Below, piece after piece: positions 13,390 to 51,344 of a DNA stretch of 64,000 nucleotides. Numbering within the stretch: the stretch's first letter is position 1; the number at the start of each line of letters is the position of its first letter. The translations under genes and the position numbers were made by a program. Where the stretch lies: the IMG/VR virus record IMGVR_UViG_3300027974_000033; one strand, given 5' to 3'. Below the pieces are notes generated by a model. It saw nothing but the letters and a program-made list of their open reading frames with translations, was not told the origin of the DNA and did no database searches. The stretch comes from an uncultured virus (IMG/VR IMGVR_UViG_3300027974_000033) (Duplodnaviria > Heunggongvirae > Uroviricota > Caudoviricetes).

Positions 13390-13850
13390 TATACCTGTTC
13401 CAGTGTTAGACTTACATCCCAAAATTCTTGTGGATCTACTCCGCTTACCATTTTGACATTTCTCTTATTAACAGTAAAGCTGCAGTTTGTTATCATTACA
13501 GAAATTATTTCATCTCTTGCAGAAATTCCGTTATAAGATATTTTTAATTTAAATGCGCCAGTTCCTTTACCTTTATAAAAAGACCTAATCTGCTCTGCAC
13601 CGTAACCGCCATCTACTGTCATTGTATCTGTTGATGGAAGTAAAGTCCATGAAACTTGAACTGATGATTTATCTGCAATAAATATTTTACGCATTGTGCC
13701 ATTAGCCATGCGCTCTGATCTTTCAATTCTATTTGAATCTATTGATACTGGCTGTCTATTATGCTCAGACAACTTGGTCCAGGTGGGAGTAATTGCATTT
13801 GTACCTGTGTCTATAAATAGTAGTGAGCCTACTGGTAAAGTTAGTGCCAT
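13389..13850 (-). CDS. Distal tail (Dit-like) protein
   Basis: Immediately follows the tape measure; RMANGTMR...VSW...WDVSLTLEQV. Confidence 0.7.
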   Translation of the reverse strand: MALTLPVGSLLFIDTGTNAITPTWTKLSEHNRQPVSIDSNRIERSERMANGTMRKIFIADKSSVQVSWTLLPSTDTMTVDGGYGAEQIRSFYKGKGTGAFKLKISYNGISARDEIISVMITNCSFTVNKRNVKMVSGVDPQEFWDVSLTLEQV

Positions 13851-16800: not shown

Positions 16801-19800
16801 TTACAACTGAGTCTAGGATGTCTGGTTCTAGTGCATTTTTTAATGAACCTTTTGCATCTTTGACATAACCATAAGGCTTTTCTTTTGCAAGAGCTGCTGC
16901 AAATTTATCGTAGAATAATTTTTGAGTATGCTTTCTTAATCCAGTATTTGCAAATAAAGTATTGGCCATTTCAATAGAAAGTGAATTTACACCCCATGGC
17001 GCTGACTCATACATACTTGGCTTTGGTGCACCTGTTGGTCCAAATCCTGCACCTATTCTATGCATTGCTTTACCCTTTAATACGTTACCAATCATTCCAC
17101 CAATTGCAAATCCATTTGCTGAAGATTTAAATCCAGCATCAGATAGGCTAACAATATGGCCAGACTGTCTTCTTTTTAATTCTTCTGCCGCTGCAATTTT
17201 AGCAAGGGCTGCTGGTGTAAGATTTGTTTCTTTTGATGCAACAACTGCTGAGTGTACGCCATGAAGTTTATTCCAATTAACATCTCTTGCATCTTCTAAT
17301 CTTTGAATCATCTTTGCGTAAATAACTTTTTCTTCTTGATTTAGATCAAAACTTCCAATAGTCTTTTTTAATCTTGGCAAAGTTGTTTCAATTTCTGAAA
17401 GCATTCTTGAGTGATACGCATCCGCTGTCATTCCAGCAGGAATATCCATTGTTGATTCAGCAAAGAATTTCTTTGCTCCGCTTCCCTTTACTCCAAGCAA
17501 ATTAATCATAGCTTGATTGCCAACAGATGGCATCATTGCTGAATAGTCTCTTACGCCAGAAGCAGTTGAAAATACCCCAGCTGTTCCAACATCTGCTAAA
17601 ACATTTCCAGATAAATTACCTCTGCCTAAATCTTTATCCCCACGAAGTGATGAAGCAAGCAGCTGTCTAAAATATTGATCTGTTGTAAATTTGCCATCTT
17701 GGACTGTGAGTGCCTTATCAAATTGTGATTCAAGAACAAGAAGCTTTCTTAATCCCTTTGGATCAGTTGGATCACGCATTACATTAACGCTTTGTTTTGG
17801 AGCCTTTAGCCCATGTGCTTCACGAGCAATTTGTGTTGCTCTCATTTCAGCAAGTGCAGCTTTTTCGTCAAGCATTGGTTTAACAAAAACCTTTTCGCCA
17901 TTTCTTGTATAAACTCCGCCAATTCCAGGAACTGGGAAACTTCTTCCAGATGTAGGCTCTAATAAATCTCCATACTCTGTTACTGGGTGCCTTGCAAATC
18001 TAGAATCTTTTACTGCAAGATCTGCTTTCTCCATTGCTGCTTTCATTGCTCTTTGTTGTTCTACCTGCTTAATTGTTTTAGGTATACCAAGGAACATTGC
18101 TTTTCCTCCGCCAAATAATCTTTGTGCAAATGAACCAGGAATCTCTCCACCCGAATTTGCTGCAATTTCTCTTGTTAGCGGAAGGGCTCTACCTCTTGTA
18201 AGAAGAAGCCTCATCATCTGAGTAATCATATGACCTCTTTGAATTACAGGCATTCTTTTAATAAGGTTTTGTGCATTTCCATATTTAAGCTCTTTTGCTA
18301 GCAAGTCTGCAGTTTCTTTTGCAGCATTTCCAGTCAAAGGTACTCTATCTACAAATTTACCCTGTGTCATTGAGGCTAGCCAATTTGTAAAGCTATTAAC
18401 TTTACTGCTTCCTGCCATTGCCAAATATGCGTTTCCTCTTGTCCTATTACTCTTTAAATTTCCATTTTCTGTAGTAAAGAAATTTCTATCCTGATCTAAA
18501 TGCTCTGAAGCATAATCAAGTTTTCCATTTGATGTAAATGTATTCATTACTCTCTGTAAAGAAACTTGATCTATGTCTGCTCTGGCCATAAGAGCAGCAA
18601 CCAAACTTCTAGATGGCTGAACTCTTGAATTTGCCGAAGGCCTTCCACCAGGTTTTAGTTCTTCTGGTTTATCTTGCCATAATAAATCTTTATATTTTGC
18701 TTTTGAGGTTGAACCATCTTTATTTACTACTGTTCGTCCCATTCCCTGCATATCAATATACTCTTGCATGCGTCTGGACTGCTCTATTCTAAATCTATTA
18801 AAAGCTTTTCTATCTACCTGACCAGTTTTTGGATCTTTAGTTCTTTGCATAGCTTCTTCAAAATCTCTTTTTGCCATAGAGACTGCTTCGTCTTCACTAA
18901 ATCCTAAATGATTTAATACTGCTGCATCGTGTAATATGACTCTATTTTTTAAAGATGCGTCATAGCTAGGATCTGAATTTCTTGTTAGCCAGCCCTTTAA
19001 TCCAGTAAATAAGTTTTCTGAAAGTCCTCCTCCAAGATTTCTTCCAAGGCCAGATGTATTTCCAGGCCCACCATTTAATGCATGCATTAGTGGCATATTG
19101 TCTTGTGCAATATCTGCTGGAACGACTGCTTCGCCAGGTGTTAGAACTACTGGTACTTGACCTCCATCTGCAAATGTTGGGGTTCCGCCAAGAAGATTGC
19201 TTATGATTGGCATATTTTCTTGTGTTGATTTTTTATTAATTACAAATGATCCAGCCTCAGCTGTTGTATGGTATGTATCGCTATTTCCTGTTCCAGGGAC
19301 TATTCCTCCATCTGCAAACTTAGGTTTTGTTGTTTGAATATTATATCCTGCGCCTGATGTTCTAACTCCACCAAGTGCTCTTGCAATCTTATCAACAATA
19401 TCTTTTGTTGTTCCTTTATGGAACATTTCCTTCATGTTTGATTTTCCAGTTAAAGGGTCTACCACTGGTTGTGCTGTCAATGGGACTGTAGTTAGATTTG
19501 CAACTCTTCCCATGCCAGCTGCAGTCGCTGCTGCAGTTTCGGCAAGCATTGCTTCTACGGTTGCATTCATTGAAATAACTTTTGCTCTTGCCTGATCTAC
19601 CGTTATTTTGCTTGCTTGAAGTTCTGCAACAATTGCTTGTGTTTCAGCTGCTGCAAGTTGAGTAATCTCAGAAAATTGTGGAAGGAGTGCTTGATATGAT
19701 TCTGCCAAACTAGATGTAATTGTTCCAGTAGCCATGACTTCTGCTTTTAATGTTTTAATTTCTGCTTCTGACTGCATCGCTATTGCTGCTGTCATTGCAT

Positions 19801-33186: not shown

Positions 33187-34290
33187 CTACTTTTCTTCTA
33201 GTGATTTTACTCTTGCTGTAAGTTCTTGTACCGCTTTAATTAATGGAGAAATAAATTCTTCGTATCTTAATGCTTGTTGTCCTTCTGCATCATTCACATC
33301 AGAAATTACCCAGCCGCCGAAGTCAGCAATATTGACTTCATCTAAGACAGACTTTACCTCTTGTGCAATTAATCCGTAATGTGTTCTATCTCCACCAATT
33401 TTATTATATTTAACTGGGTTTAATTTATTAATAAAATTTAATCCAAGGTCAGATGTCAATATATTTTCTTTTGTTCTTTCATCTGATATAACAGTTGCTG
33501 CTGAGTTTAAATATATGTTTTTCCATCCTCTAGTTACGTTATCTGTTCCAGAGTTAATTGGACCAAGCAAACCTAAAGTAAATGTATTTGTTGATAGTGG
33601 ATACCAGGCAGAGTTGACTCCAGTTGTAGATGTTGCTGTTGTTTGTAGCGCAATTCTTGTTGCAATTGGATCAATAACAGCATTTGATCCTGCTGCGCCA
33701 GTTGCGCCAGTTGCACCAGTTGCGCCAGTATCTCCACGAGGAATTGTAAAATTTAAAATAACATTGCTAGATGTTCCAGTATTTGTAACAATAGCGTTTG
33801 TTCCTGCTGCACCTGTAGTTACTGGGCTAGCAATAGTAATTGTTGCTGCTGCATCACCTTTTGGACCAGTTGCTCCAGTTGCTCCAGTTGCTCCAGTTTC
33901 TCCAGTTGGTAAAACTAAATTTAAAACTTGAGATGGAGATGTGCCAGTAATTGTTGCAGAAGCTAGTGCGCCAGATACAACTGTTCCAATTGTTAAAACA
34001 TTTGATGGACCAGGGCCACCAATTACTCCATCTTGACCTTTTGGAATATTAAATGTTAAAGATTGTGATGGAGATGTTCCGCTAATAGTTACCGAAGCAT
34101 TTTGACCAGCATTTATTGTATTTGTTGAAGCAATGGTTAAAACGTTTGAAGGGCCTGTTGCTCCTTGGGGTCCAGGATGAGCAGCAATATATGTAGCAAT
34201 ATCATTACCTAAAATACCAAGATCTCTAGGTACATCGGGAGAATCCGAGTAACTTGGGAAGTGCCATCCATTAACGCCTGTAGTTGCCAT
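33187..34290 (-). CDS. Collagen-repeat fibre with C-terminal peptidase S74 intramolecular chaperone
   Basis: G-X-Y repeats; ISDERTKENI...LNPVKY...YGLIAQEV...LIKAVQEL. Confidence 0.85.
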   Translation of the reverse strand: MATTGVNGWHFPSYSDSPDVPRDLGILGNDIATYIAAHPGPQGATGPSNVLTIASTNTINAGQNASVTISGTSPSQSLTFNIPKGQDGVIGGPGPSNVLTIGTVVSGALASATITGTSPSQVLNLVLPTGETGATGATGATGPKGDAAATITIASPVTTGAAGTNAIVTNTGTSSNVILNFTIPRGDTGATGATGATGAAGSNAVIDPIATRIALQTTATSTTGVNSAWYPLSTNTFTLGLLGPINSGTDNVTRGWKNIYLNSAATVISDERTKENILTSDLGLNFINKLNPVKYNKIGGDRTHYGLIAQEVKSVLDEVNIADFGGWVISDVNDAEGQQALRYEEFISPLIKAVQELTARVKSLEEK

Positions 34291-34297
34291 TTTTTAA

Positions 34298-34969
34298 TTA
34301 TACCATTAAGCCTTTATACACAGAAAGGTGTGAGGTATATCTTTTGCCAGACAAAACTTCATTTACCTTATGAAGATACGGCTCTTGACTTGGAAATATT
34401 ATTAGGCTGCCCTCTTGTGGCTTTATTGACAAGCCTTGGTTTGGAAACTCTATCTCGCCACCCTCATAGTCATCATTCAGATAAGCTATCATTGAGAATG
34501 CTAGTGTTGTATGTCCGTCATAGTTATCACAATGTGGCCCCATGCCAGAACCTGCTGCCCATTCTCTAATTGGAATTTCTCCCATTGGAAGTATATAATT
34601 TTTTCCGTCAATATTTCTTGACTTTAAATAATTATCAAGACACATTTCAAATGCCATTTTTAAACTATTACTTATGTAAAGAATTTTTTGATCTAGTCTG
34701 GAACCAGAATTATTTTCTTTTATGCTATTAGTTAAAACATTTTTATTTTTTCCGTATACAACATTGACATCATCACTTGCTGTCCATGGGCTCCACTGTG
34801 TTATTTTTGAATAACTATCTTGGCTTTCATCGACCTCATTGATAAAATCAACTAGTTCTTTTGGATAGCTTAAAACATTTTTAAAATGCCATATGCCATC
34901 TTCTAAAGCATTTGGTATGAACATGTGATACATGTCATTTGGATTAAAATCTTTTTTATCTTCTATCAT
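34298..34969 (-). CDS. 2OG-Fe(II) oxygenase (prolyl 4-hydroxylase-like)
   Basis: HCD, YLNDDYEGGEI, H...RY. Confidence 0.88.
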   Translation of the reverse strand: MIEDKKDFNPNDMYHMFIPNALEDGIWHFKNVLSYPKELVDFINEVDESQDSYSKITQWSPWTASDDVNVVYGKNKNVLTNSIKENNSGSRLDQKILYISNSLKMAFEMCLDNYLKSRNIDGKNYILPMGEIPIREWAAGSGMGPHCDNYDGHTTLAFSMIAYLNDDYEGGEIEFPNQGLSIKPQEGSLIIFPSQEPYLHKVNEVLSGKRYTSHLSVYKGLMV

Positions 34970-35727
34970 TAGATATTCTCTACTTCTGAGGCTGGGACTG
35001 GTGCTCCGTACGGAGTTAGTCTTAATCCTTTGTCACGGATTTCTTTCCATTCTTCTTGCTCGCCTTTTTGATGTGCTCTGACTTTAGCTAACTCGTCTGC
35101 CCATTCATCTCTAATTTCTTGAGGATAATCAGACTCTTCTCTATCGTCCCAAAAAGATCCAAGCGTATATCTTGGCGCTCCTTTTACTACGGTAACCTCA
35201 TGCATGTTTTTATGACCACCATGAAATATTAAAAATGACCCAGCTTTTGGAATAACTTCAAGTGGGGTTTTTCCATGTCTTGCATCAAACTTTAATGTTC
35301 CGCCTTCAAAATCATCATTTAAATATAAAAAACCAGCATATCTACTTCGTGTAAACGCACCCATTTTTCCTTCTGAGTCGCTGTTGTCTGAGTGCTTTGG
35401 TGCAAAAGCTCCTGGAAGCCATCTTTGCACATGAAAGCTAATCTGAGACATGTCTTCGAAAGACTTATTTGCTACATCTGCAGCAGCCTGTCTAAATCTA
35501 TTTTTAAGATCAGTAAACCATGTAGGGCTTAAATTAAATTCAGCAAGCACTGCTTCACCATCAAATGGGTATCTGGCAGAGTATGACTCATAAAAAGATA
35601 TTCCCTTCCAGTAGTCATCGTCAGTCTCAGCAAGTTTTTCTAGCAGCCCAATGACAGATTTGCATTCTTCTTTTGATATAAAATCTTCATAGAGATCTAT
35701 ATCTTCTGTTAGTTTAGTAAGCTTCAT
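34969..35727 (-). CDS. 2OG-Fe(II) oxygenase (prolyl 4-hydroxylase-like)
   Basis: HSD, YLNDDFEGG, MHEV...RY. Confidence 0.88.
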   Translation of the reverse strand: MKLTKLTEDIDLYEDFISKEECKSVIGLLEKLAETDDDYWKGISFYESYSARYPFDGEAVLAEFNLSPTWFTDLKNRFRQAAADVANKSFEDMSQISFHVQRWLPGAFAPKHSDNSDSEGKMGAFTRSRYAGFLYLNDDFEGGTLKFDARHGKTPLEVIPKAGSFLIFHGGHKNMHEVTVVKGAPRYTLGSFWDDREESDYPQEIRDEWADELAKVRAHQKGEQEEWKEIRDKGLRLTPYGAPVPASEVENI

Positions 35728-36548
35728 TACATACCCCCTGGCCCAGATTTATCTCCAGATAGATCATCATATTTGGTCGGAACCCCATCCTGTAAGTATC
35801 TCATGTTTCTAGGATTGTCGTGCTTTAATCTTTCAAATTCTTTTTTCATCCAATTAGCGGCTCCTAATTTCTTTTGATTTTCGAGCCATTCTGGGTGTCC
35901 GTCGTAAGGGTACATAACAAAATTTCTTACAAAGAATTTTTCTCCATTATATATTGTTTTTACGCCATGAAAATATGGTTCATCTGATGGAAAGACAAGG
36001 ATGTCTCCAGCCTGTGGTTTATGATTTACCCTATCCCCATTAACAAAAAATTCAATATCTCCGCCGTCGTAATTATCATTTATATACATTGTGCAGGTTA
36101 ATTGAAATTTAGATCCTGGCATGTCTCTTTCTGAAATAATAAAATCTGTGTGATATTGCATAGTCATTTTATTATCTAGGACATCAACTTGATCCGTATA
36201 CTTTGAAAAAGAACATCCGCTAAAATGCCAATTAGGTTTTAATTCAATGCCGTGCCTATTAATATAATCAAGCAATACTGCATCATAGGCGGACTGAATT
36301 TGATCCACAAAATCTTTTTCTTCTATAAACATTGGGTCGGACTTTTGAGTATCATCTACTTCTAATGAATTTTTTGCTTGGGAATAGGTGCCAAAATGTG
36401 CCCAAGGGTCCCAAGTCTTTAAAAGGTACTTGCCTTCAGATGTCTGCTCTGATTTTTTCATTGTCTCATACAGGGCCTGCGGATCTTTCAAAACATTTCT
36501 GTACACATCCACTTTTGGATATAGCTCTACGTATTCTAAATTTGTCAT
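35727..36548 (-). CDS. 2OG-Fe(II) oxygenase (prolyl 4-hydroxylase-like)
   Basis: HTD, YINDNYDGG, FHGV...KF; probable start at 36548 (ATGA overlap). Confidence 0.88.
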   Translation of the reverse strand: MTNLEYVELYPKVDVYRNVLKDPQALYETMKKSEQTSEGKYLLKTWDPWAHFGTYSQAKNSLEVDDTQKSDPMFIEEKDFVDQIQSAYDAVLLDYINRHGIELKPNWHFSGCSFSKYTDQVDVLDNKMTMQYHTDFIISERDMPGSKFQLTCTMYINDNYDGGDIEFFVNGDRVNHKPQAGDILVFPSDEPYFHGVKTIYNGEKFFVRNFVMYPYDGHPEWLENQKKLGAANWMKKEFERLKHDNPRNMRYLQDGVPTKYDDLSGDKSGPGGM

Positions 36549-37222
36549 GGCTGTCTTTCTCCTGTGTGTTTCATTATCGTCCAAAAAAATGGCGAAGTAA
36601 ATCTATTTCCTGCTGTTACTGGTCTTACCCCGTGTGTGTAGTGCATGTCTCCTGGGAAGAAATATGCTGCGCCTGCTTTTGGCTTAAATTCAATTCCGTG
36701 CTGTGGGAAGTATAGCTCTCCGCCTTCATAGTCATCATTAAAATAAAATAGTCCTGCTAAGTCATACCATGGAAAATCATTTGGTCTTCCCTTTTCTATT
36801 CCAGTGTGAAACTCTTTGTCTGCGTGTGGTTCTTGTCTTGCCCCAACTGGCCATCTAACAATTGCTGGGCCTGTCTCTTGAGCATCAACAGAAAAAAATT
36901 TATCCACTTCAATTTTAAGTCTTGCTATCATTGAGTTAATTAATTCTAATATTGTTGGGTCAGACTCCATTAAAGAGTTGTGAGTGCAAACCCTATCTTT
37001 CCATATATTTGCATCATACAAAACTAATCCGTCTTCATCAACATGAGTTTCGGTTTGATCCCAAACTTTATTGTTTAAAGCAAAACTTATAAGCCTTTGC
37101 CTTTCATCTTCAGTCAAAAAATTTTCTAGCTCTATAATATTATCTGAGGATGAGCCAAAGAAACCTGAAGGCGTTATTGACTTCGGTGCATATAGCTGTA
37201 TGTCTTTATTTGCAATTTTCAT
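36545..37222 (-). CDS. 2OG-Fe(II) oxygenase (prolyl 4-hydroxylase-like)
   Basis: HAD, YFNDDYEGGEL, THGV...RF. Confidence 0.88.
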   Translation of the reverse strand: MKIANKDIQLYAPKSITPSGFFGSSSDNIIELENFLTEDERQRLISFALNNKVWDQTETHVDEDGLVLYDANIWKDRVCTHNSLMESDPTILELINSMIARLKIEVDKFFSVDAQETGPAIVRWPVGARQEPHADKEFHTGIEKGRPNDFPWYDLAGLFYFNDDYEGGELYFPQHGIEFKPKAGAAYFFPGDMHYTHGVRPVTAGNRFTSPFFWTIMKHTGERQP

Positions 37223-37266
37223 TAGTTCTCTTTCTGTTAATACTACAATATAATTTTACCATGCTA

Positions 37267-37971
37267 TTAATCTTTATTATCAATGACTTTTAATCTTATT
37301 GCTTTTACTTGGTGCTTCCCTAAAGATACTCCAAGGTGGTCTGTAGCATTACGGTAAAAATTAGTCCATTTCCCAACCGCATTTGATTCCGACCCAGCTT
37401 TGCTATATTCTTTAGAATCAAATGTTCTTTCTGGCATTTTTGAAGAGTCAAAAAACTCTATTTCGGAATCCTGCAAAGCTTCAAGGTTTATTGGCATTAT
37501 TGAAAATATGGGCGTGTTAGCTTTTATTGTTATTTCAACATTTGGCCTAGTTACTCGGATCGCACAAGATAAATCTCCACTATAAAAAGAAGAACTCATT
37601 ATTGTTGTAAATGGCTCATACCCGTCTACAAAATTATTAGGGACTGGCATAGTGAGGAGGCTGTGGTTTTCATCTGTTTTAAATGTTATGCCAGTGTTAA
37701 AACTTACCGTAGCATTTGATCTTTCGGCATAAGCATATTTATCTCCAGATAATATTTTTACGTGATCTGGTGTGGAATCAGATATTCCGTCCCATATAAA
37801 AGTTATATCTTCTGGGAATGAGATAGACCAGCCCATTTGATTTGGTAATCCAACTGGAAAACATTTATATGCGTGAGCTTCCCAAGTTTCATCCATCCAA
37901 TCTCTTTTTACTGATAAGGGGAGGACTGTGGCTGAAATATCTTTTGCTCTATAGGCTTTGAGTTTTACCAT
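37267..37971 (-). CDS. DUF6065-like protein
   Basis: RDWMD...AYKCFP...NQMGW pattern, recalled from DUF6065-type proteins; not verified by search. Confidence 0.6.
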   Translation of the reverse strand: MVKLKAYRAKDISATVLPLSVKRDWMDETWEAHAYKCFPVGLPNQMGWSISFPEDITFIWDGISDSTPDHVKILSGDKYAYAERSNATVSFNTGITFKTDENHSLLTMPVPNNFVDGYEPFTTIMSSSFYSGDLSCAIRVTRPNVEITIKANTPIFSIMPINLEALQDSEIEFFDSSKMPERTFDSKEYSKAGSESNAVGKWTNFYRNATDHLGVSLGKHQVKAIRLKVIDNKD

Positions 37972-38623
37972 CGTTTAATCTTTTTTCTACAAGTGCACGA
38001 TACTCATCATTATGAGTGTTATCGTTATAATCTAGCATTGTAACTATAGAATATTTTTTGCCTTCTTCTACTGGCATTGCAACATGAGAATAGATATATG
38101 TGGACGGGAATATGTATAAGTCACCAGCTTTTGGCTTAATTTTTAAGTCTAATTTTGGGAACCATAGCTCTCCGCCAGTGTAATCATCATTTGGATACGC
38201 TACCAGAGACACCGTTGCTGTATAAGAAAACCCGTGGTCGGCATGCTCTTGAAAATGTTGTCCTGGACCATAAGAAATAAAATTCATTACTTCCCAAAAA
38301 TCCATTCTTACGCTATGAAATGAACAATAGTCTTCTGCTGCTGGCCCCTGTGTATCTTTGGCATCTTGCCATATATCATTTATTCGTCTATCAAAATCAT
38401 TTCTTATTGTTGGCACTGGGCCTATCTTTACATCTTGGCAATCTCTATAGCTTGGCCTTGTTTCATCATAGCCAACTGTTGCGCCTCTCCAGTTGTACTG
38501 CCCATTGCTTTCATTAACAACAGAGACAAGCCTTTCCATTAAATTTAGTTCTGGCTTAACTACGTCTCTATATACCCATAACCCAGGAAATAGGATTTCT
38601 TTGCTTGACCAAGTTTGATTCAT
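37949..38623 (-). CDS. 2OG-Fe(II) oxygenase (prolyl 4-hydroxylase-like)
   Basis: HAD, YPNDDYTGGEL, SHVA...KY. Confidence 0.88.
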   Translation of the reverse strand: MNQTWSSKEILFPGLWVYRDVVKPELNLMERLVSVVNESNGQYNWRGATVGYDETRPSYRDCQDVKIGPVPTIRNDFDRRINDIWQDAKDTQGPAAEDYCSFHSVRMDFWEVMNFISYGPGQHFQEHADHGFSYTATVSLVAYPNDDYTGGELWFPKLDLKIKPKAGDLYIFPSTYIYSHVAMPVEEGKKYSIVTMLDYNDNTHNDEYRALVEKRLNDGKTQSL

Positions 38624-38636
38624 TTTTCTCTTTCTC

Positions 38637-39215
38637 TCATATATAGTTTATCATATCATCTGGTAATATGTCAATAATTAAATGCACTCTATCAAAATCA
38701 GTTGGGTTAGAAACGGAGTGTGGCATTTGATTATTAATTTCATACCATCCGCCCTCTTCCATATGTATTGTATTGTCCATTACAGTAAATGTTATTAAAT
38801 CTTTTGTTATTATGGGTACATGAACTCTTCTAGAATAGTGAAGCAGGGCTCCACCATCAACATGCTTTGGTATATAAGAATTAGAATTTAATTTAACAAA
38901 TTCACACCTTATTATTTTGCCAGAATAGTATGACTCTAAATCAATAAAAATTTTTTTAAGCTCTTGATCTGATAGACTATTTTTAAGAAGATTTACATAA
39001 TTGGTTTCAACTGGGTCGCCAACAATCCAATCGTAATCTGTTTCACAAATTCTAAACATCTGTGTGCTTTTGTGAGTATACCCTTTTTCTTGCCTGCTTT
39101 GATCAATCAGCCATTCATTTGAAAAATTAGAAATTTCATCTTTAATATGATTTATTTCAAAATGACCTAGGTGAAGTATTGACCACTCAGTATTCTTTTT
39201 TAATCTTTTGTACAT
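38637..39215 (-). CDS. Aspartyl/asparaginyl beta-hydroxylase-like 2OG oxygenase
   Basis: IPKHVD, RVHVPIIT, EINNQMPHSVSN and RVHLIID. Confidence 0.85.
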   Translation of the reverse strand: MYKRLKKNTEWSILHLGHFEINHIKDEISNFSNEWLIDQSRQEKGYTHKSTQMFRICETDYDWIVGDPVETNYVNLLKNSLSDQELKKIFIDLESYYSGKIIRCEFVKLNSNSYIPKHVDGGALLHYSRRVHVPIITKDLITFTVMDNTIHMEEGGWYEINNQMPHSVSNPTDFDRVHLIIDILPDDMINYI

Positions 39216-39894
39216 ATTCGTATACCTCCATGTCCAATAAATTAATTTCTTCTATTCTATTTATATGTCTTTTATCAAATTTAATTCCTATATCATAAGA
39301 GGAATTTGCTTTGTCGGAATGTTTAAATGTTGAAAATCCAAATTGTTTTAATAAGCTTTTATTTAAATCTATTTTAAATAAATCTAGTTCTTCTAGCGTA
39401 TAAGCTTTCATTTTTTCAAGACTTGAAATTACATTTTTTATATCTAATTTATATCCTTCTAAATACCAACCGCTGCTAACTGTATTTTGAAATTGTAATA
39501 TATCCTGATTAAATTTTTCTATATTTAATTTACCAGTTAAAAATTTTGACTGCAGGTTGGATTGCATTTCGCATTCTTCCCCATAAAGCCATCTATCTAA
39601 TTTTTCTTCAGCTTCTTTTCCCGCTCTTATTGGTCCTGTTGTATATTTAAAATAGCTTATAAATCTTTCTACTGGGTCTCTAACTATTGTAAAAATTTCT
39701 GGACTGTCCATATAATCTAAAGGCATTAAGCCAAAATGACCACCAACAAACCTACTTTTTTTTATTTTTTCTACATCTATTTTATTCCTATTGGATATAC
39801 AATGCTCTACCCCATTTGATATCAAATGGGGTATTACATTATTCTTTATGTATATACCAGATGTTCTTGGAATATGCAGATGGTATATTGACAC
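39187..39894 (-). CDS. Sulfotransferase (family 2-like)
   Basis: PAPS-binding motifs HLHIPRTSG and VRDPVERFIS. Confidence 0.82.
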   Translation of the reverse strand: MSIYHLHIPRTSGIYIKNNVIPHLISNGVEHCISNRNKIDVEKIKKSRFVGGHFGLMPLDYMDSPEIFTIVRDPVERFISYFKYTTGPIRAGKEAEEKLDRWLYGEECEMQSNLQSKFLTGKLNIEKFNQDILQFQNTVSSGWYLEGYKLDIKNVISSLEKMKAYTLEELDLFKIDLNKSLLKQFGFSTFKHSDKANSSYDIGIKFDKRHINRIEEINLLDMEVYEYVQKIKKEY

Positions 39895-41186
39895 TAAAAA
39901 GCTTTACGGTTGTGTACTACTAGATCTCCCGCAATTAAAATATCATTTGGAGAAGCATCAAATTCATAAACGGTTCTTTCTTCATTTATAATTTTTGTTG
40001 ATTCTACTACTACCTCTTCAAAAATATTTTCATTATTTTTTACAAATATTGAATCTCCTGGTTCAAGAATTCCTGTTGTGCTAAAGAAATATGTGTCATT
40101 TTTCTTTGCAAGAATTGTTTGTTCTAGTGAGAATCTCTTAGAAGAGTCATCATTAATAATCATAGTTGCATCTTTTATAGAAGGCTTTACGGCTCTAATT
40201 TCAGTTTTTACTAGATGTATATTATTAATTGAATCTGTAGACCATGTATAAGGATCGATTTCAAATTCATCAAGCAATCCATCCCATGTTGCTGACCATA
40301 CTTGGTCACCTACTTGAATTTCTTTTGCTTTTTTAAATTCTACTGTGTCATTTGGACCCACTGTCATTACAAGAGTGTCTTGATCAATGCAATAGAACCC
40401 TGGTGGGGCAAAGAACCCTGGTGGGGCAAAGAACCCTGGTGGGGCAAAGAACCCTGGTGGGGCAAAGAACCCTGGTGGGGCAAAGAATGATGGTGGTGCG
40501 AAGAACCCTGGTGGGGCAAAGAACCCTGGTGGGGCGAAGAATGATGGTGGTGCGAAGAACCCTGGTGGGGCAAAGAAGCTTGGCGGGAAGAACGGTGCCA
40601 ATGTTGTAACAGAATTTGATGATGCTGAATATGAAGAGTCTCCGTTACCATTTGTAGCAAGTACTTGATATGACTGTGCAGTGTTTGCTGTTTCTGGTAC
40701 AGTGTGGCTTACTCCAGCTATTGAATATATTGGGCCATCGCTTGACTTAAGCTTGTATCCAGTTATTGCTTTTCCTCCATCAGCTGGTGCAGACCAGGTA
40801 ACATAGTCTTGGTTAATCTGTGCTGTAGCTGTTGGTGCTCCTGGGGTAGAAGGAACGGTTGTTGCGGTAACTGAGGCTGAAGCGGTTGATGGCTCGGAAT
40901 CTCCAAATGTATTTTTTGCAACAACTGTATAGGTGTAAGGTGTATTAGAAAGAAGACCAGTGACTGTAATAGGAGAAGAAGTTCCTGTTCCAGTTCGACC
41001 TCCTGGGCTAGCTGTTACAACATACTCTGTTGCTGCGTATGGCCCATCTGGTGTAAACGATACTGTTGCTGCTCCATCATTAAATGGACGGTTGGTTCCA
41101 ACATCTGTTGCGCTTACATTGATTGGCTTAAATGGCATCAGGAAGTCATTCGAGCCCTGGCTCATTCTACCTACTTGTTTTGACAT
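39894..41186 (-). CDS. FN3-FN3-(FFAPPG/S)10-Hint domain protein
   Basis: Two FN3 domains (TGLLSNTPYTYTVVAKN; WSAPADGGKAITGY), a Pro/Phe repeat, then a Hint domain from CIDQDTLV to VYEF...LVVHN. Confidence 0.82.
   Translation of the reverse strand: MSKQVGRMSQGSNDFLMPFKPINVSATDVGTNRPFNDGAATVSFTPDGPYAATEYVVTASPGGRTGTGTSSPITVTGLLSNTPYTYTVVAKNTFGDSEPSTASASVTATTVPSTPGAPTATAQINQDYVTWSAPADGGKAITGYKLKSSDGPIYSIAGVSHTVPETANTAQSYQVLATNGNGDSSYSASSNSVTTLAPFFPPSFFAPPGFFAPPSFFAPPGFFAPPGFFAPPSFFAPPGFFAPPGFFAPPGFFAPPGFFAPPGFYCIDQDTLVMTVGPNDTVEFKKAKEIQVGDQVWSATWDGLLDEFEIDPYTWSTDSINNIHLVKTEIRAVKPSIKDATMIINDDSSKRFSLEQTILAKKNDTYFFSTTGILEPGDSIFVKNNENIFEEVVVESTKIINEERTVYEFDASPNDILIAGDLVVHNRKAF
40398..40577 (-). repeat. 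Coding tandem repeat, 10 x 18 bp
   Basis: Plus-strand unit ccctggtggggcaaagaa (8 copies, one with a synonymous change) and tgatggtggtgcgaagaa (2 copies), encoding FFAPPG and FFAPPS. Confidence 0.97.
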
Positions 41187-48712: not shown

Positions 48713-50884
48713 CTAATATTGTATATAAATATCTCCAGCAACCATGCCTGTAGTAGGAAGTGTGCCAGTATTATTATAGAATGTTTTTGCTCCTGCTGAT
48801 ATTGTTGTTGAGCCTCCAAGTGCTACTGCCGTTCCATTTATAGTAATAGATGAATTTGCTAACTTATTGTTGGCTATTGAGCCAGCAAGCATTGTATTTG
48901 TTACAGTTGCAGAATCTAAAAGTGTAACTGCTGTTCCAGATATTTTAGATTTATCAATTGCTGCTGAAGCACTGATATCTGAATTAACAATAGTTCCATC
49001 AGCAATCATTGTTGATGTTATTGTTCCAGAAGGAGCAGAAAATGTTCCAGTAAATGATGCATTATTAATTGGTGCATAGGCTGCTAAATTAAGAGTTGCC
49101 CACGATGGAGATGTACCATCAGTCATTAAATATTTTCCAGCATTGTTAAGTTGTGCTGGGAGAATTGAAATACCAGATACTGTTGCACCAGAAAAATCTA
49201 CTGTTCCAGTAAATACTGGTGAAATCTTTGGTGCATAAGTTGATGATGCTGTTGATATAGATAATTTAGTATCTAATGCGGATTGTGTAGCAGTTGATAT
49301 TGGTTTTGATTCATCAGTTGTATTATCTACATTACCAAGACCAATCATTGTTTTTGTAATACCATTTACTGTTCCAGTAAATGTTGGGGAAGCAATTGGT
49401 GCATATGTAGATGCGGCAGTTGCAGAAGATAATTTAGTTCCAACTAATGTTGTTAATGCTGTCCCTGCAGATTGATCTGTTGATATGTAATCTGCTATTT
49501 CTTTAAGTGTATCAAATGAAGATGGTGCTCCATTTACAACATTTGCTATAGCTGTGGTTATGTCAGATGTTCTTGCAATTGTTGAAGGTATAACTGTATC
49601 TAGTATTTTTCCACTAGATAATCCAATTTTTGCATATCCTCCTGGCAGATCAGCATCTGCTTCAGAAACATATGCATCTAATGTATTACCAAGTCCTGCT
49701 GATGTTAAGAAATGTGAATTTGCATATGCTAATAAATCATCGTTAGCTTGATTTAAATTAACATATACATCTGTAAATCTTTGGTTAGTAGCTGAGATTG
49801 CTCTTGCATCTGTGAAATAAAGATTATTTGAGCCTTCTGTTATTGCATCTGTTGTCCCAGAAAATGTTGAACTTCCTGAACCAGCTGGACCCTGTGGACC
49901 AGTTGCGCCAGTTAATCCTCGTTCACCTTGTGGGCCTGTTGCGCCAGTGTCGCCTTTTAATCCCTGTGGACCAGTTGCACCAGTTGCGCCAGTGTCGCCT
50001 TTTAATCCCTGTGGACCAGTTGCGCCAGTTGCGCCAGTTGCCCCAGTAGCACCAGTGTCACCTCTTAATCCTTGTGGGCCTACGTCTCCACGAGGAATTG
50101 TAAAATTAAATAACGGTGCAGTTGGTGTTCCAGTATTTGTAATAGAAACAGATGTTCCTGGGTTTCCAGTTGAAACTGTTCCAAGCGTAATTGTAGATGA
50201 TGCTCCACCTGAAGACAGTCCAGAAACAGCTGCATTAATTGCAGTATTCCTATTTGTAATTTCAGTTGATATTGCTGTATTTATTGCAGTATTTCTATTA
50301 GATATTTCTAATGCAATTTTATTATCTGTATAAACATTTGCTGATGAGGTTGCTAATGTTACTGCTGCTTCGTCTTTAGAATCTGCTGAGGTTCCTGCCG
50401 CTGCTAAAGTTTCTATTTTTACTGCAGAAGTTTTGCTACTTGCATCGGCTGCTGCTGTTGCAATAGCTTCTGATTTGGCAGCAGATATAGCTGTATTTCT
50501 ATTTGTAACTTCCGTTGCAATTGCTGCAGATATTGATGATGCTACTGCATCTATTGCTCTTTGGTTTGTAAAATATTTATTGCTACCTTCTGATACAGAG
50601 GTTGTTGATAGCGTTGCAATTGCTGTTGCTAAATCTGCAGATACGGACATTGAGTCTGGAAGTTGTGAGGTGGGTATTTTACCAAGAGCATTTAGTGTTG
50701 CTACTCCATTGGCCTCTCCAGCTTTAAATGCATAGGAAGTTGTTGCATTCCATCTTGAGCCATTACCAATTTTAAACTTTAGGCTGTCTGTCTCAATTCC
50801 TAGTTCACCTGATAATAGTATTGGGTTGTTGGACACCCAGTTTGCTGCTGTGTCTCTTCTAAGTTGTATTCTTAATGATGCCAT
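48713..50884 (-). CDS. Collagen-containing fibre protein with Mtd_N-like N-terminus
   Basis: [32 protein letters not shown] run; probable start at 50884 with SD GGAGG. Confidence 0.78.
49888..50092 (-). repeat. Collagen-like G-X-Y coding repeats
   Basis: [15 protein letters not shown] units; near-identical DNA repeats such as ccagtgtcgccttttaatccctgtggaccagttgc. Confidence 0.9.
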
Positions 50885-50885
50885 T

Positions 50886-51344
50886 TTATGAACCTCCTGC
50901 ATCAACAATTATACCATCGTTGTCTGCAGAACTTCCTCCTTCTAAAACTTCGTCTTGTACTACTGTAACGCTGCCTTCTGGGTTTCCGCCATCAAGCAAT
51001 GTTTGGTTTTCAAATGTTCCGCCTTGGTTTGATGTTGAAGGACTTTGTCCGTCGTATCCAATTACAAGTGGTAATACTAGATCGGGAGAATCTGAAGTAT
51101 TTGTTTCCTTAAATGTAATCTTATTCTGAACATCAATTGTATGAACATTTCCATCAAATGTGTGAGTATGCATATAAAATGGTGTTGGGTCTGTGCTCGG
51201 CGGGGTAAGCTCTACCCAAACCATACCATTGTATATTCTTAAATTCTTACTTACTACATTGAAGTATATATCTCCAACAGTGGCTATGTCGGGGTTCTCC
51301 ATAGAAGTAAGAAGATTAAGTGCAACCTTCATTTGTCTGGACAT
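50886..51344 (-). CDS. Small virion protein
   Basis: GDIYFN...LRIYNGMVW motif; C-terminal LDGG/LEGG/DAGG repeats. Confidence 0.6.

What the first reader, a model, noticed from the sequence alone, without database searches (positions are those of the whole stretch)
34298..41186. Candidate phage protein-tailoring system: self-processing (FFAPPG)n-Hint substrate co-transcribed with six 2OG-Fe(II) oxygenases and a sulfotransferase
Seen: inside the structural block, a gene encoding FN3-FN3-FFPPS-(FFAPP[G/S])x10-FY-Hint is followed in transcription order by eight tightly packed genes. They encode a sulfotransferase, an AspH-like hydroxylase, a P4H-like oxygenase, a DUF6065-like protein and four more P4H-like oxygenases. 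All six oxygenases keep HxD...H and a basic 2OG-binding residue (Lys in two of them). Known: Pro-Pro-Gly is the canonical prolyl 4-hydroxylase substrate, and sulfotransferases act on hydroxyl groups. Inference: the repeat is the dedicated substrate, hydroxylated by divergent paralogues and then sulfated or otherwise decorated. The product could be a modified virion surface filament or, in RiPP-like fashion, multiple copies of a modified peptide. I know of no described phage system with this layout.
Basis: partly seen in the sequence, partly recalled or inferred. Interest (0 to 1): 0.92.

Follow-up and report, generated by a model that had tools for sequence, protein, structure and literature searches.

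The report
Phage Phe-Pro repeat protein with hydroxylases
An uncultured lake phage encodes a fibre-region protein ending in a phenylalanine-proline repeat with a self-cutting cap, followed by collagen-type hydroxylase-like enzymes and a sulfotransferase that probably decorate that repeat, though no chemistry has been shown.

Summary
All nine genes, their order, the FN3-FN3-FFPPS-(FFAPP[G/S])x10-FY-Hint architecture and the HxD...H plus Lys/Arg motifs are as described.

- Starting from the repeat protein, 64 of 64 loci with enough downstream DNA carry the enzyme array.
- Starting from DUF6065, 42 of 42 loci with enough upstream DNA carry a Phe/Pro-Pro repeat protein.

There is also a natural control. 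Sister phages whose protein at the same position has single-Pro repeats (FGFSP type) lack the array.

New details:
- The "AspH-like" gene is closest to a solved proline cis-4-hydroxylase.
- It travels with the sulfotransferase as an optional two-gene module.
- The same slot holds a PF11397 (GlcNAc) glycosyltransferase-like gene in one relative; three others carry one behind a second repeat paralogue.
- DUF6065 has a dUTPase-like fold.

Weaknesses:
- All evidence is genomic association in one lineage.
- This genome has about seven to nine further oxygenase-like genes elsewhere and a second Pro-Pro repeat protein.
- The RiPP reading is unlikely.

This scan flagged the same system earlier in related phage genomes. 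I found no description in print; the nearest is an in-silico prediction (Iyer 2010).

The parts
39894..41186 (-). 430-aa repeat protein: N-terminal conserved segment, FN3, FN3, Phe/Pro repeat, Hint domain
   Evidence: ORF. Pfam fn3. AF2 model. 212 relatives in IMG/VR.
40602..41123 (-). Two FN3 domains (residues 22-108 and 119-195)
   Evidence: pLDDT above 90. Foldseek matches to tandem FnIII domains, 3lpw E 1.3e-10. VIA Z 15.2.
40392..40592 (-). Repeat tract FFPPS-(FFAPP[G/S])x10-FY (residues 199-265)
   Evidence: Sequence. TRF period 18, 10.4 copies. pLDDT below 50, so predicted disordered as a monomer. F-F and P-P are invariant across 32 aligned relatives.
39897..40391 (-). C-terminal Hint (intein/BIL/Hedgehog-type) domain: Cys266 ... 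His425-Asn426, then RKAF and the stop
   Evidence: VIA Z 16.8-17.0 to intein, BIL and Hedgehog domains. Profile hits to inteins, 5.3e-7. Intein_splicing matched in 11 of 24 members.
39187..39894 (-). Sulfotransferase (Sulfotransfer_2), 235 aa
   Evidence: Pfam 27 bits against a cut-off of 22. Profile hit to heparan sulfate 6-O-sulfotransferase 5t03, 1.1e-5. HIPRTSG is conserved and the Arg, Pro, Arg, Ser positions of RDPVERFIS are invariant. It is the only such gene in the genome.
38637..39215 (-). PF05118 (Asp_Arg_Hydrox family) 2OG oxygenase, 192 aa
   Evidence: Pfam 4.4e-11. The best solved relative is L-proline cis-4-hydroxylase 4p7w, 1.5e-6. H118, D120 and H166 are invariant.
37949..38623 (-). 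ox1: P4H-type 2OG-Fe(II) oxygenase, 224 aa
   Evidence: Pfam 1.6e-12. Profile hits to B. anthracis P4H 1.7e-7, LH3 about 2e-3 and PBCV-1 P4H 3.8e-3. H127, D129, H180 and K190 are invariant.
37267..37971 (-). DUF6065 protein with a dUTPase-like fold and an invariant Cys37, 234 aa
   Evidence: Pfam 2.1e-26. AF2 pLDDT 82.5. Foldseek matches to dUTPases, 2.6e-4. VIA Z 11.0, with the top 8 (and 13 of the top 14) being dUTPases. Invariant columns.
36545..37222 (-). ox2: P4H-type 2OG-Fe(II) oxygenase, 225 aa
   Evidence: Pfam 4.6e-9. HAD...H...R motif.
35727..36584 (-). ox3: P4H-type 2OG-Fe(II) oxygenase, 285 aa (start TTG 36584 or ATG 36548)
   Evidence: Pfam 3.2e-9. HTD...H...K motif read from the sequence.
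34969..35727 (-). ox4: P4H-type 2OG-Fe(II) oxygenase, 252 aa
   Evidence: Pfam 5.9e-10. HSD...H...R motif.
34298..34969 (-). ox5: P4H-type 2OG-Fe(II) oxygenase, 223 aa
   Evidence: Pfam 3.3e-12. HCD...H...R motif. tblastn matches cyanophage 2OG oxygenases at 25-55% identity.

Best explanation
This is a conserved late-gene cassette of a roughly 116-kb lake phage, probably of Actinobacteria.

Shown:
- The first gene encodes a fibre-region protein with two FN3 domains and an aromatic-aromatic-(x)-Pro-Pro repeat tail.
- The tail is capped by a genuine Hint domain.
- The gene association described in the For line.

Inferred:
1. The Hint cuts itself off at Cys266, through an N-S acyl shift followed by hydrolysis or transfer. 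This leaves the FN3-FN3-repeat protein ending in ...PPGFY.
2. The five divergent P4H-type oxygenases hydroxylate the Pro-Pro (X-Pro-Gly) sites of the tail, perhaps at different ring positions or different residues. DUF6065 is an accessory factor of unknown role.
3. The PF05118 hydroxylase and the sulfotransferase form an optional second-step module: hydroxylate, then O-sulfate. One relative has a PF11397 (GlcNAc) glycosyltransferase-like gene in the same slot.
4. The product would be a hydroxyproline-rich, negatively charged or glycosylated filament on the virion.
For: Architecture and fold.

Association, starting from the repeat protein:
- In 79 of 79 loci with at least 700 nt downstream, the first recognised downstream gene is the sulfotransferase (27) or ox1 (52).
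- In 64 of 64 loci with at least 6.5 kb downstream, ox1, DUF6065, ox2, ox4 and ox5 are present. ox3 is present in 60 of 64. Each locus has 5 to 9 oxygenases.

Converse, starting from DUF6065:
- 42 of 80 loci had at least 4.5 kb upstream.
- 34 of the 42 have an FFxPPx run.
- The other 8 have a homologue with FFPP or [YH]FPP repeats, so 42 of 42 carry a Pro-Pro repeat protein.

Natural control:
- L244, L245 and L246 encode one protein with FxVFGFSP/FSFTP repeats and no Pro-Pro. L243 has FGFSP repeats with some TPP units.
- All four lack ox1, DUF6065 and ox3-5.
- The 71-kb record behind L244 has 1 PF13640 match. A 76-kb FFxPPx-type record has 6, and complete genomes have 11 and 13.

Substrate motif: 8 of the 10 PPG motifs in the 165 predicted proteins lie in this protein. 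The collagen-like fibres nearby have GPQ/GAT triplets and no X-Pro-Gly.

Enzyme kinship: B. anthracis P4H 1.7e-7, collagen lysyl hydroxylase LH3, PBCV-1 P4H. Proline cis-4-hydroxylase for the PF05118 gene.

Variable slot after the substrate gene:
- PF11397 GlcNAc transferase-like gene in L042 (1.1e-15).
- The same family after a second FFxPPx-Hint paralogue in L060 (6.3e-42); equally sized ORFs sit at the same place in L065 and L072 but were not scanned.
- An extra oxygenase after the second paralogue in L038.

Hint cleavage: natural Hint-less variants end at the predicted cleavage point...FFAPPGFWD (L036-L041).

Precedent: an in-print in-silico prediction of a hydroxylate-then-sulfate pathway on co-encoded collagen-like or tail-collar proteins (PMC2938197, passages read).
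Against: - No chemistry is shown anywhere.
- All association comes from one phage lineage with generally conserved gene order, so the counts are not independent events. The natural control rests on two independent sequences.
- The same genome has another island of 2 JmjC-like genes, 5 PF13640 genes and a glutathione peroxidase. It also has a DUF6065 paralogue with a further oxygenase. None of these is next to a repeat gene.
- A second Pro-Pro repeat protein, (VEPPV/EEPPA) x about 22, lies at C1:91567-94257.
- In cyanophage Syn9 a ten-dioxygenase array follows the fibre genes without any Pro-rich protein.
- The only solved relative of the sulfotransferase acts on a sugar.
- Ser content of the repeat does not track sulfotransferase presence.
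- The block-B His of the Hint is Gln here (S-L-E-Q), so cleavage efficiency is uncertain.
Confidence: 0.55

Rival explanations
1. The oxygenases act on other or several virion proteins, such as the neighbouring tail fibres or the 896-aa EPP-repeat protein. They sit beside the repeat gene only because all of these are late structural genes.
For: - The cassette is embedded between fibre genes.
- Syn9 has a dioxygenase array right after its fibre genes and no Pro-rich protein there.
- The genome has a second Pro-Pro repeat protein and oxygenase islands elsewhere.
- Iyer 2010 proposed tail-collar and collagen-like proteins as substrates.
Against: - The collagen-like fibres here lack X-Pro-Gly.
- The array is absent in sister phages that keep the fibre genes, g112 and portal but have a repeat without Pro-Pro.
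- 8 of the 10 PPG motifs in the proteome are in the repeat protein.
Confidence: 0.15
2. The enzymes are not protein-tailoring enzymes. They might modify host envelope glycans or lipids, nucleic acids or small molecules. Alternatively they might consume 2-oxoglutarate as auxiliary metabolic genes, as proposed for cyanophage homologues.
For: - Homologues in cyanophages have been discussed as 2OG/N-stress or DNA-repair genes (PMC3037559, passages read).
- PHROG labels include 'DNA endonuclease'.
- The sulfotransferase resembles a carbohydrate sulfotransferase.
- Many oxygenase genes in this genome lie in non-structural regions.
- Iyer 2010 suggested secondary-metabolite roles for the Syn9 array.
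Against: - The best solved relatives are peptidyl prolyl and lysyl hydroxylases, not TET/AlkB enzymes.
- There is strict two-way linkage with a Pro-Pro repeat protein, and the array is lost where Pro-Pro is lost.
- A PF11397 glycosyltransferase-like gene occupies the same slot in one relative and follows a second repeat paralogue in another. The link of that family to polypeptide hydroxyproline/Thr GlcNAc transferases is partly recalled.
Confidence: 0.17
3. RiPP-like reading: the repeat is a multi-core precursor, and modified FFAPPG peptides are released as small products.
For: The units are short, identical and tandem, and they are followed by tailoring enzymes.
Against: - There are no protease recognition sites between units, and the cassette has no protease or exporter gene.
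- The tandem FN3 domains and the N-terminal segment are conserved, as in structural proteins.
- The same tail is fused to other large fibre-like N-termini.
- Units degenerate to FFPP and [YH]FPP, and the x positions vary freely.
Confidence: 0.03

Closest known systems
Chlorovirus PBCV-1 prolyl 4-hydroxylase and that virus's Pro-rich repeat peptides (PDB 5c5t; the substrate work by Eriksson et al. 1999 is recalled, not read here)
   Same: A virus-encoded collagen-type P4H whose likely substrates are the virus's own proline-rich short repeats. The ox1 profile matches 5c5t at 3.8e-3.
   Different: - PBCV-1 is a eukaryotic virus with a single enzyme.
- Here a bacteriophage has five divergent paralogues plus DUF6065.
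- The substrate is an aromatic Pro-Pro repeat with a Hint cap.
- There are optional sulfotransferase or glycosyltransferase modules.
Bacillus anthracis prolyl 4-hydroxylase (PDB 3itq, 5hv0)
   Same: It is the best solved sequence relative of ox1 (1.7e-7). It belongs to the PF13640 family and has the HxD...H motif.
   Different: It matches over only about 90 residues. It is a cellular enzyme. No activity is known for the phage proteins.
Predicted bacterial beta-hydroxylase + sulfotransferase operons with collagen-like or phage tail-collar proteins, and the Syn9 ten-dioxygenase array (Iyer, Abhiman, de Souza, Aravind 2010, PMC2938197; passages read)
   Same: - The logic is the same: hydroxylate a co-encoded fibrous protein, then sulfate the hydroxyl.
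[quoted passage not shown] This fits DUF6065 (the hhalign match to gp43 is weak, 30% probability).
   Different: - Those are in-silico predictions for bacteria and a T4-like cyanophage.
- They involve no Phe/Pro repeat, no Hint cap and no FN3 protein.
- The Syn9 array was interpreted as secondary-metabolite synthesis.
Bacterial intein-like (BIL) domains and Hedgehog/Hog autoprocessing domains (PDB 2lwy, 6tmm, 1at0; type definitions recalled from Amitai 2003 and Dassa 2004)
   Same: The Hint fold (Z 16.8-16.9). Cys1. A terminal His-Asn. No +1 nucleophile, so cleavage or transfer is expected rather than splicing.
   Different: It sits at the extreme C-terminus directly after a low-complexity repeat. 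The block-B His is Gln in this protein. The family caps many repeat flavours in uncultured sequences.
Skp1 prolyl-hydroxylation and glycosylation pathway (PhyA/P4H1, then the Gnt1 GT60 enzyme; PMC6939170, passage read), and plant hydroxyproline-rich glycoproteins (recalled)
   Same: A P4H-type enzyme followed by a transferase that decorates the new hydroxyl. One relative carries a PF11397 'GlcNAc' glycosyltransferase-like gene in the slot held here by the sulfotransferase pair, and another carries one behind a second repeat paralogue.
   Different: - Those are eukaryotic cytoplasmic or secretory pathways.
- The PF11397-to-Gnt1 link is recalled, not tested.
- This window has no such transferase (which had no positive control).
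C-terminal intramolecular chaperone of endosialidase-type tail fibres (Peptidase_S74)
   Same: A self-removing C-terminal cap on a phage fibre protein. One is present on the neighbouring 367-aa fibre.
   Different: The fold and chemistry are unrelated (a serine-lysine protease against a Hint thioester).

Membership tests
Hint superfamily (intein / BIL / Hedgehog autoprocessing) | Hint fold | tested here: met
   VIA Z 17.0 (4o1r, rmsd 2.1, 137 aligned), 16.9 (6tmm), 16.9 (1at0), 16.8 (2lwy) over residues 263-430. Profile hits to inteins, 5.3e-7.
Hint superfamily (intein / BIL / Hedgehog autoprocessing) | N-terminal nucleophile (Cys, Ser or Thr at position 1) | tested here: met
   Cys266 comes directly after ...PPGFY. 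In 32 aligned relatives this position is Cys, or Ser in the KSVG subtype.
Hint superfamily (intein / BIL / Hedgehog autoprocessing) | Block-B Thr-x-x-His (motif recalled) | tested here: not met
   The window has S-L-E-Q at the aligned position. His is present in the L015 and L018 types. Residue equivalence is inferred from the alignment, not from a structural superposition.
Canonical splicing intein | C-terminal His-Asn followed by a Cys, Ser or Thr +1 nucleophile and a C-extein | tested here: not met
   His425-Asn426 are present, but they are followed by RKAF and the stop codon. Relatives end in HNK or HNxKx[FY]. It is therefore not a splicing intein.
Hint superfamily (intein / BIL / Hedgehog autoprocessing) | Actual self-cleavage at the N-terminal junction | not testable with these tools
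   Indirect evidence only: Hint-less natural variants end at ...FFAPPGFWD (L036-L041).
Collagen-type prolyl 4-hydroxylase (PF13640, 2OG-FeII_Oxy_3) | Family profile above the curated cut-off | tested here: met
   Five genes score 37.5-48.6 bits against a cut-off of 27. The ox1 profile matches B. anthracis P4H at 1.7e-7.
Collagen-type prolyl 4-hydroxylase (PF13640, 2OG-FeII_Oxy_3) | HxD...H iron triad and a basic 2OG-binding residue | tested here: met
   HAD/HAD/HTD/HSD/HCD ... H ... K/R/K/R/R.
Collagen-type prolyl 4-hydroxylase (PF13640, 2OG-FeII_Oxy_3) | Peptidyl-proline 4-hydroxylation activity on X-Pro-Gly | not testable with these tools
   Only the motif is present in the neighbour protein: 8 PPG.
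Sulfotransferase (PF03567, Sulfotransfer_2) | Family profile above the cut-off, and PAPS-binding 5'-PSB and 3'-PB motifs (motif names recalled) | tested here: met
   27 bits against a cut-off of 22. In 14 sequences HIPRTSG is conserved and the Arg, Pro, Arg, Ser positions of RDPVERFIS are invariant. HS 6-O-sulfotransferase 5t03 matches at 1.1e-5.
Aspartyl/asparaginyl beta-hydroxylase family (PF05118) | Family profile above the cut-off, and the iron triad | tested here: met
   43.3 bits against a cut-off of 22.6. H118, D120 and H166 are invariant.
Aspartyl/asparaginyl beta-hydroxylase family (PF05118) | Specificity for Asp/Asn in EGF-like domains (AspH proper) | tested here: inconclusive
   The best solved relative is L-proline cis-4-hydroxylase 4p7w (1.5e-6). 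A 'beta-hydroxylase', 7v4f, scores only 0.62. No EGF-like domain was seen in the cassette.
DUF6065 (PF19541) | Family profile above the cut-off | tested here: met
   93.3 bits against a cut-off of 26.6. The fold is dUTPase-like: Z 11.0, with the top 8 (and 13 of the top 14) being dUTPases. Function is unknown, and no paper holds the term.
Collagen triple helix (Gly-X-Y) | Gly at every third residue | tested here: not met
   In FFAPPG, Gly or Ser recurs every sixth residue. The third position is A, S, G, N, T or V.
RiPP multi-core precursor | Leader or recognition sequence, cleavage sites between cores, and a dedicated protease or exporter | tested here: not met
   There are no inter-unit sites and no protease or transporter gene in the cassette. 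The N-terminus is a conserved pair of FN3 domains.

The most novel reading that the evidence does not exclude
The phage builds an extensin- or mucin-like filament on its virion. Five specialised hydroxylases convert an aromatic Pro-Pro polymer into a hydroxyproline-rich rod, which is then O-sulfated (or O-glycosylated in sister phages). The thioester generated by the Hint domain is not simply hydrolysed. Instead it is used to couple the finished filament covalently to another virion protein or to a host-surface nucleophile. This would be the first enzymatic post-translational 'materials chemistry' on a bacteriophage particle, and the first natural ligation role for a phage Hint domain.
Probability: 0.12. 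Interest if true: 0.92.

Novelty: new variant of a known kind. Interest (0 to 1): 0.78.

Why it matters
- 2OG-Fe(II) oxygenase genes are among the commonest 'orphan' genes of aquatic phages. The cyanophage literature offers only guesses at their role: 2OG or nitrogen-stress modulation, DNA repair, or secondary metabolites.
- This cassette gives such enzymes a concrete, cheaply testable protein substrate that sits next to them.
- If confirmed, it would be the first enzymatic hydroxylation and sulfation system for a bacteriophage structural protein.
- It would also give a function to a large family of Hint-capped repeat tails: 983 representatives at E <= 1e-10.
- It would provide a natural toolbox of proline-modifying enzymes matched to a simple hexapeptide.

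Tried and rejected
Searches and tests that led nowhere:
- **Complex prediction.** ox1 (alignment A4) with repeat residues 192-266 gave no verdict (ipSAE 0.00 in both runs; controls were not run). This is no evidence either way.
- **Annotated phages.** Megablast of the region, tblastn of the 430-aa protein and tblastn of DUF6065 all found nothing.
- **Single-sequence searches.** phmmer of the Hint part against PDB sequences gave nothing meaningful. NCBIfam gave nothing above its cut-offs.
- **Genome-contig scan with the DUF6065 profile.** Only 3 loci came back. All belong to the same phage family and sit in Bacteroidota MAG bins, so there is no independent cellular context.
- **Viral scan with a poly-Pro Hint protein (P0138).** No relative was found.
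- **Ser content of the repeat against sulfotransferase presence.** No clear difference: position x6 is Ser in 17% against 10%; position x3 in 27% against 35%; 20 against 34 proteins.
- **APS-kinase-like gene against sulfotransferase presence.** It is present in 2 of 2 sulfotransferase-positive complete genomes and in 2 of 4 sulfotransferase-negative ones. This is inconclusive.
- **Promoter and terminator scan.** Counts were near the shuffled expectation and uninformative.
- **PF11397 in the window's own genome.** No match, but the search had no positive control.
- **Syn9 gp43 against DUF6065.** hhalign gave only 30% probability, E 5.6e-4.
- **RNA libraries.** Contigs from three lake metatranscriptome runs cover parts of the repeat gene, the fibre gene and several oxygenase genes with 0 differences. 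DNA carry-over is not excluded, so this shows presence only. Gaps in cover are not evidence.

Readings considered and rejected:
- **Collagen-like triple helix.** Gly does not recur every third residue.
- **RiPP precursor.** See Rival explanations.
- **Streptomyces phage Muntaha** (portal 57% identical). It has no cassette upstream of its portal, so it is an outgroup only.

Full report
**1. What is there**

The window is the first 64 kb of a 116,155-bp IMG/VR virus record rated 100% complete by CheckV. All genes of the region lie on the minus strand.

They abut or overlap: rep/sulfotransferase share 1 nt; sulfotransferase/PF05118 overlap by 29 nt; ox1/DUF6065 by 23 nt; ox2/ox3 by up to 40 nt; ox3/ox4 and ox4/ox5 by 1 nt each.

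Pfam places them, all above the curated cut-offs, in fn3, Sulfotransfer_2, Asp_Arg_Hydrox, 2OG-FeII_Oxy_3 (five genes) and DUF6065.

Upstream is an 877-aa Mtd_N tail fibre. Downstream are a 367-aa collagen-like fibre with a Peptidase_S74 chaperone, a Laminin_G_3 protein, a small gene and the portal. The cassette is therefore inside the structural block.

The phage also carries a WhiB gene. Its portal is 57% identical to that of Streptomyces phages. A paper I read in passages calls whiB an indicator of actinophages (PMC10202952). The near-identical DNA occurs in runs labelled freshwater or lake metagenomes. A lake phage of Actinobacteria is the likely origin.

**2. The repeat protein**

- The sequence reads FFPPS-(FFAPP[G/S])x10-FY-Cys. 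The DNA repeat has period 18 and 10.4 copies.
- An AF2 model built on 32 relatives gives two confident beta-sandwich domains, a repeat with pLDDT below 50, and a confident C-terminal domain.
- Foldseek identifies the tandem FN3 pair.
- VIA-align against 48,161 chains puts inteins, two BIL domains and the Hedgehog autoprocessing domain at Z 16.8-17.0 over residues 263-430.
- A 24-sequence profile finds inteins and a BIL domain in PDB sequences at 5e-7 to 1e-5. 11 of the 24 members hit Pfam Intein_splicing individually.
- The domain starts with Cys266 and ends His425-Asn426-RKAF-stop. There is no +1 nucleophile, so it cannot splice in the canonical way.
- At the position that aligns with the block-B Thr-x-x-His motif (recalled), this protein has S-L-E-Q. 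Some relatives have His there.

**3. Relatives**

The search for related loci found 212 relatives in IMG/VR and kept 80 loci, at 36-100% identity. Across the unique proteins:

- The F-F and P-P positions are invariant and the x positions vary freely. Copy number ranges from 5 to 28.
- The tail, with or without the Hint, is portable. In 7 loci a second, much larger protein (853-1057 aa) with different N-terminal domains ends in the same repeat.
- Six loci (L036-L041) encode Hint-less forms that stop at ...FFAPPGFWD, just where cleavage is expected. They also lack the sulfotransferase and PF05118 genes. One deletion could explain all three losses, but the oxygenase array is kept.
- A search of 1.84 billion representatives with the Hint profile gave 4,530 hits at E <= 1e-3, 983 at <= 1e-10 and 86 at <= 1e-30. 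I examined 90 of the best 150. I dropped 60 that were fragments with fewer than about 50 residues before the Hint, or multi-stretch proteins.
- Of those 90, 22 have at least three aromatic-aromatic-(x)-Pro-Pro units just upstream. The rest carry FGFSP, FGFTP, YSFTP, poly-Pro, PT or other short repeats. This Hint type is therefore a general cap on low-complexity tails.

**4. Association test**

*From the repeat protein.*
- 79 of 80 loci have at least 700 nt downstream. In all 79 the first recognised downstream gene is the sulfotransferase (27) or ox1 (52). Unassigned small genes can lie between.
- 64 loci have at least 6.5 kb downstream. All 64 carry ox1, DUF6065, ox2, ox4 and ox5, and 60 carry ox3. 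The total is 5 to 9 oxygenases per locus.

*Conversely, from DUF6065.*
- DUF6065 has at least 577 relatives, of which 80 loci were kept. 42 of the 80 have at least 4.5 kb upstream.
- 34 of the 42 show an FFxPPx run. The other 8 have a homologue whose repeat has collapsed to FFPP or [YH]FPP.
- So 42 of 42 have a Pro-Pro repeat protein upstream.

These counts come from one lineage with conserved gene order and are not independent events.

*Natural control.*
- Using an FGFSP-type Hint protein as the query, I found sister phages with the same fibre-rep-...-g112-portal frame.
- L244, L245 and L246 encode one protein whose repeats have no Pro-Pro. L243 has FGFSP repeats with some TPP or APP units.
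- None of the four has ox1, DUF6065 or ox3-5. Downstream lie two unknown genes, a ribonucleotide reductase, one small PF13640 gene and a 1,200-aa protein.
- The 71-kb record behind L244 (64% complete) has 1 PF13640 match. A 76-kb FFxPPx-type record has 6. Complete genomes have 11 and 13.
- L243 keeps the sulfotransferase/PF05118 pair directly after its repeat gene although it has no array.

**5. The enzymes**

- **Paralogues.** The five PF13640 paralogues are 22-29% identical to ox1. Each has its own orthologue in relatives, which suggests distinct roles.
- **ox1.** Its profile matches B. anthracis P4H (1.7e-7), collagen lysyl hydroxylase LH3 (about 2e-3), PBCV-1 P4H (3.8e-3) and PiuC.
- **PF05118 gene.** Its profile matches L-proline cis-4-hydroxylase (1.5e-6) far better than the entry deposited as 'beta-hydroxylase' (0.62).
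- **Sulfotransferase.** It has conserved HIPRTSG, and the Arg, Pro, Arg, Ser positions of RDPVERFIS are invariant. Its one solved relative is heparan sulfate 6-O-sulfotransferase.
- **DUF6065.** It has no PDB sequence relative, but its model (pLDDT 82.5) has a dUTPase-like fold and an invariant Cys. [quoted passage not shown] The direct comparison with Syn9 gp43 is weak.
- **The variable slot after the repeat gene.**
  - This clade has the sulfotransferase plus PF05118 pair. L012 and L014 have the sulfotransferase alone.
  - L042 has an unknown gene plus a PF11397 'GlcNAc' glycosyltransferase-like gene (1.1e-15).
  - Ser1-type loci have other unknown genes there, and carry a short-chain dehydrogenase further along between ox4 and ox3.
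  - After the second paralogue, L060 carries PF11397 (6.3e-42); equally sized ORFs sit at the same place in L065 and L072 but were not scanned. L038 carries an extra oxygenase.
  - I recall, but did not test, that PF11397 is the family of Gnt1. That GT60 enzyme adds GlcNAc to hydroxyproline of Skp1 (function read in PMC6939170).

**6. Why the repeat is the best candidate**

- X-Pro-Gly is the classical collagen P4H motif (established knowledge).
- 8 of the 10 PPG motifs in the 165 predicted proteins of the genome are in this one protein.
- The two collagen-like fibres in the window use GPQ/GAT triplets and have no X-Pro-Gly.

**7. What weakens it**

- The genome has 13 PF13640 matches, 10 of them above the cut-off. 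Five are in this cassette.
- Elsewhere there are two JmjC-like genes, five PF13640 genes and a glutathione peroxidase at C1:76.9-81.6 kb. There is also a DUF6065 paralogue with another oxygenase near 110 kb. None is beside a repeat gene.
- Only one aromatic Pro-Pro protein exists in the genome. However, an 896-aa secreted-looking protein carries about 22 VEPPV/EEPPA units and is conserved in 245 relatives.
- In cyanophage Syn9 the dioxygenase array also follows the fibre genes, with glycine-rich but no proline-rich proteins nearby.
- The kinship of the sulfotransferase points to sugars, and Ser content does not track its presence.
- No experiment exists.

**8. Mechanism I commit to (confidence 0.55)**

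1. The Hint cap removes itself, or transfers the tail.
2. The P4H-type paralogues hydroxylate the Pro-Pro sites.
3. The PF05118 hydroxylase and the sulfotransferase act as a pair, hydroxylating and then sulfating.
4. The genome also holds a P-loop kinase whose N-terminal half matches APS kinases (Pfam 2.6e-15; all 19 PDB hits are APS kinases). This enzyme could supply PAPS.

What is shown is the architecture, the folds, the motifs and the gene association. Cleavage, every chemical step, the virion location and the PAPS link are inferred.

**9. Known or new**

- My searches found no paper describing hydroxylation of phage structural proteins, this repeat, or DUF6065.
- The closest in print is the in-silico work of Iyer et al. 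2010.
- Cyanophage 2OG oxygenases are discussed as 2OG/N-stress or repair genes (PMC3037559).
- Freshwater phages with cysC are known (PMC10914622, passages read).
- The PBCV-1 substrate study and the BIL-type papers are recalled, not read.
- This scan had already flagged the same system in more than ten related phage genomes. Their claims on the Hint fold, the Hint-less sisters and the link between array and proline content were re-tested here and hold.

Noticed in passing
L081:12934-17558 (own genome C1:76933-81557, outside the window): A second oxygenase island: two JmjC_2/cupin genes on the plus strand, then five 2OG-FeII_Oxy_3 genes and a glutathione peroxidase on the minus strand. No repeat protein is beside it.
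   Followed up: partly
L082:7571-10258 (own genome C1:91567-94257): An 896-aa protein with a hydrophobic, signal-peptide-like N-terminus (judged by eye), Ala/Thr-rich regions and about 22 VEPPV/EEPPA units. It is a second Pro-Pro repeat protein and a possible alternative hydroxylase substrate. It is conserved in 245 IMG/VR relatives, and many contigs break inside its repeat.
   Followed up: partly
L082:12020-12781 (own genome C1:96019-96780): A 253-aa P-loop kinase. Residues 2-85 match APS kinase (Pfam 2.6e-15; all 19 PDB hits are APS kinases or PAPS synthases). It could supply PAPS to the single sulfotransferase. It is present in 3 of 5 further near-complete relatives (92-100% by CheckV), once with an internal TAA in a genome that has lost the sulfotransferase.
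   Followed up: partly
L083:5704-7538 (own genome C1:109703-111537): A DUF6065 paralogue (hhalign probability 100%, 35% identity) lies next to another 2OG-FeII_Oxy_3 gene. DUF6065 therefore pairs with an oxygenase twice in one genome.
   Followed up: partly
L042:11891-12895; L060:4464-5645 (equally sized ORFs in L065 and L072 were not scanned): PF11397 'GlcNAc' glycosyltransferase-like genes sit directly after a Phe/Pro-repeat gene in relatives, in the slot held by the sulfotransferase pair in this window.
   Followed up: partly
L036-L041 (for example L036:10001-10801): Natural Hint-less versions of the repeat protein end in ...FFAPPGFWD. Larger paralogues in L036 and L038 end in ...FERYD and ...SEQYD. 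All Hint-less forms seen end in Asp.
   Followed up: partly
window 48713-50908 and 33187-34290: Two collagen-like tail-fibre proteins with GAT/GPQ triplets. The first has an Mtd_N N-terminus and the second a Peptidase_S74 self-cleaving chaperone. Neither has an X-Pro-Gly motif.
   Followed up: partly
L085, L086, L087: Contigs of this phage family are filed inside Bacteroidota MAG bins in the species-genome collection. This conflicts with the WhiB and portal evidence for an actinobacterial host and probably reflects mis-binning.
   Followed up: no
window 40423-40548: Contigs from RNA-library runs that match the window exactly stop on both sides of the repeat tract. Short-read assemblies evidently break at this repeat.
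   Followed up: no
window 13850-22021: A very long ORF of 2,723 aa lies on the minus strand in the tail region. Its size suggests a tape-measure or fibre protein. I did not examine it.
   Followed up: no
L243:5807-7152; L244:11331-12616: Two conserved genes of about 215-239 aa with no Pfam match follow the FGFSP-type repeat gene, where the hydroxylase array would otherwise be. They may be alternative tailoring enzymes.
   Followed up: no
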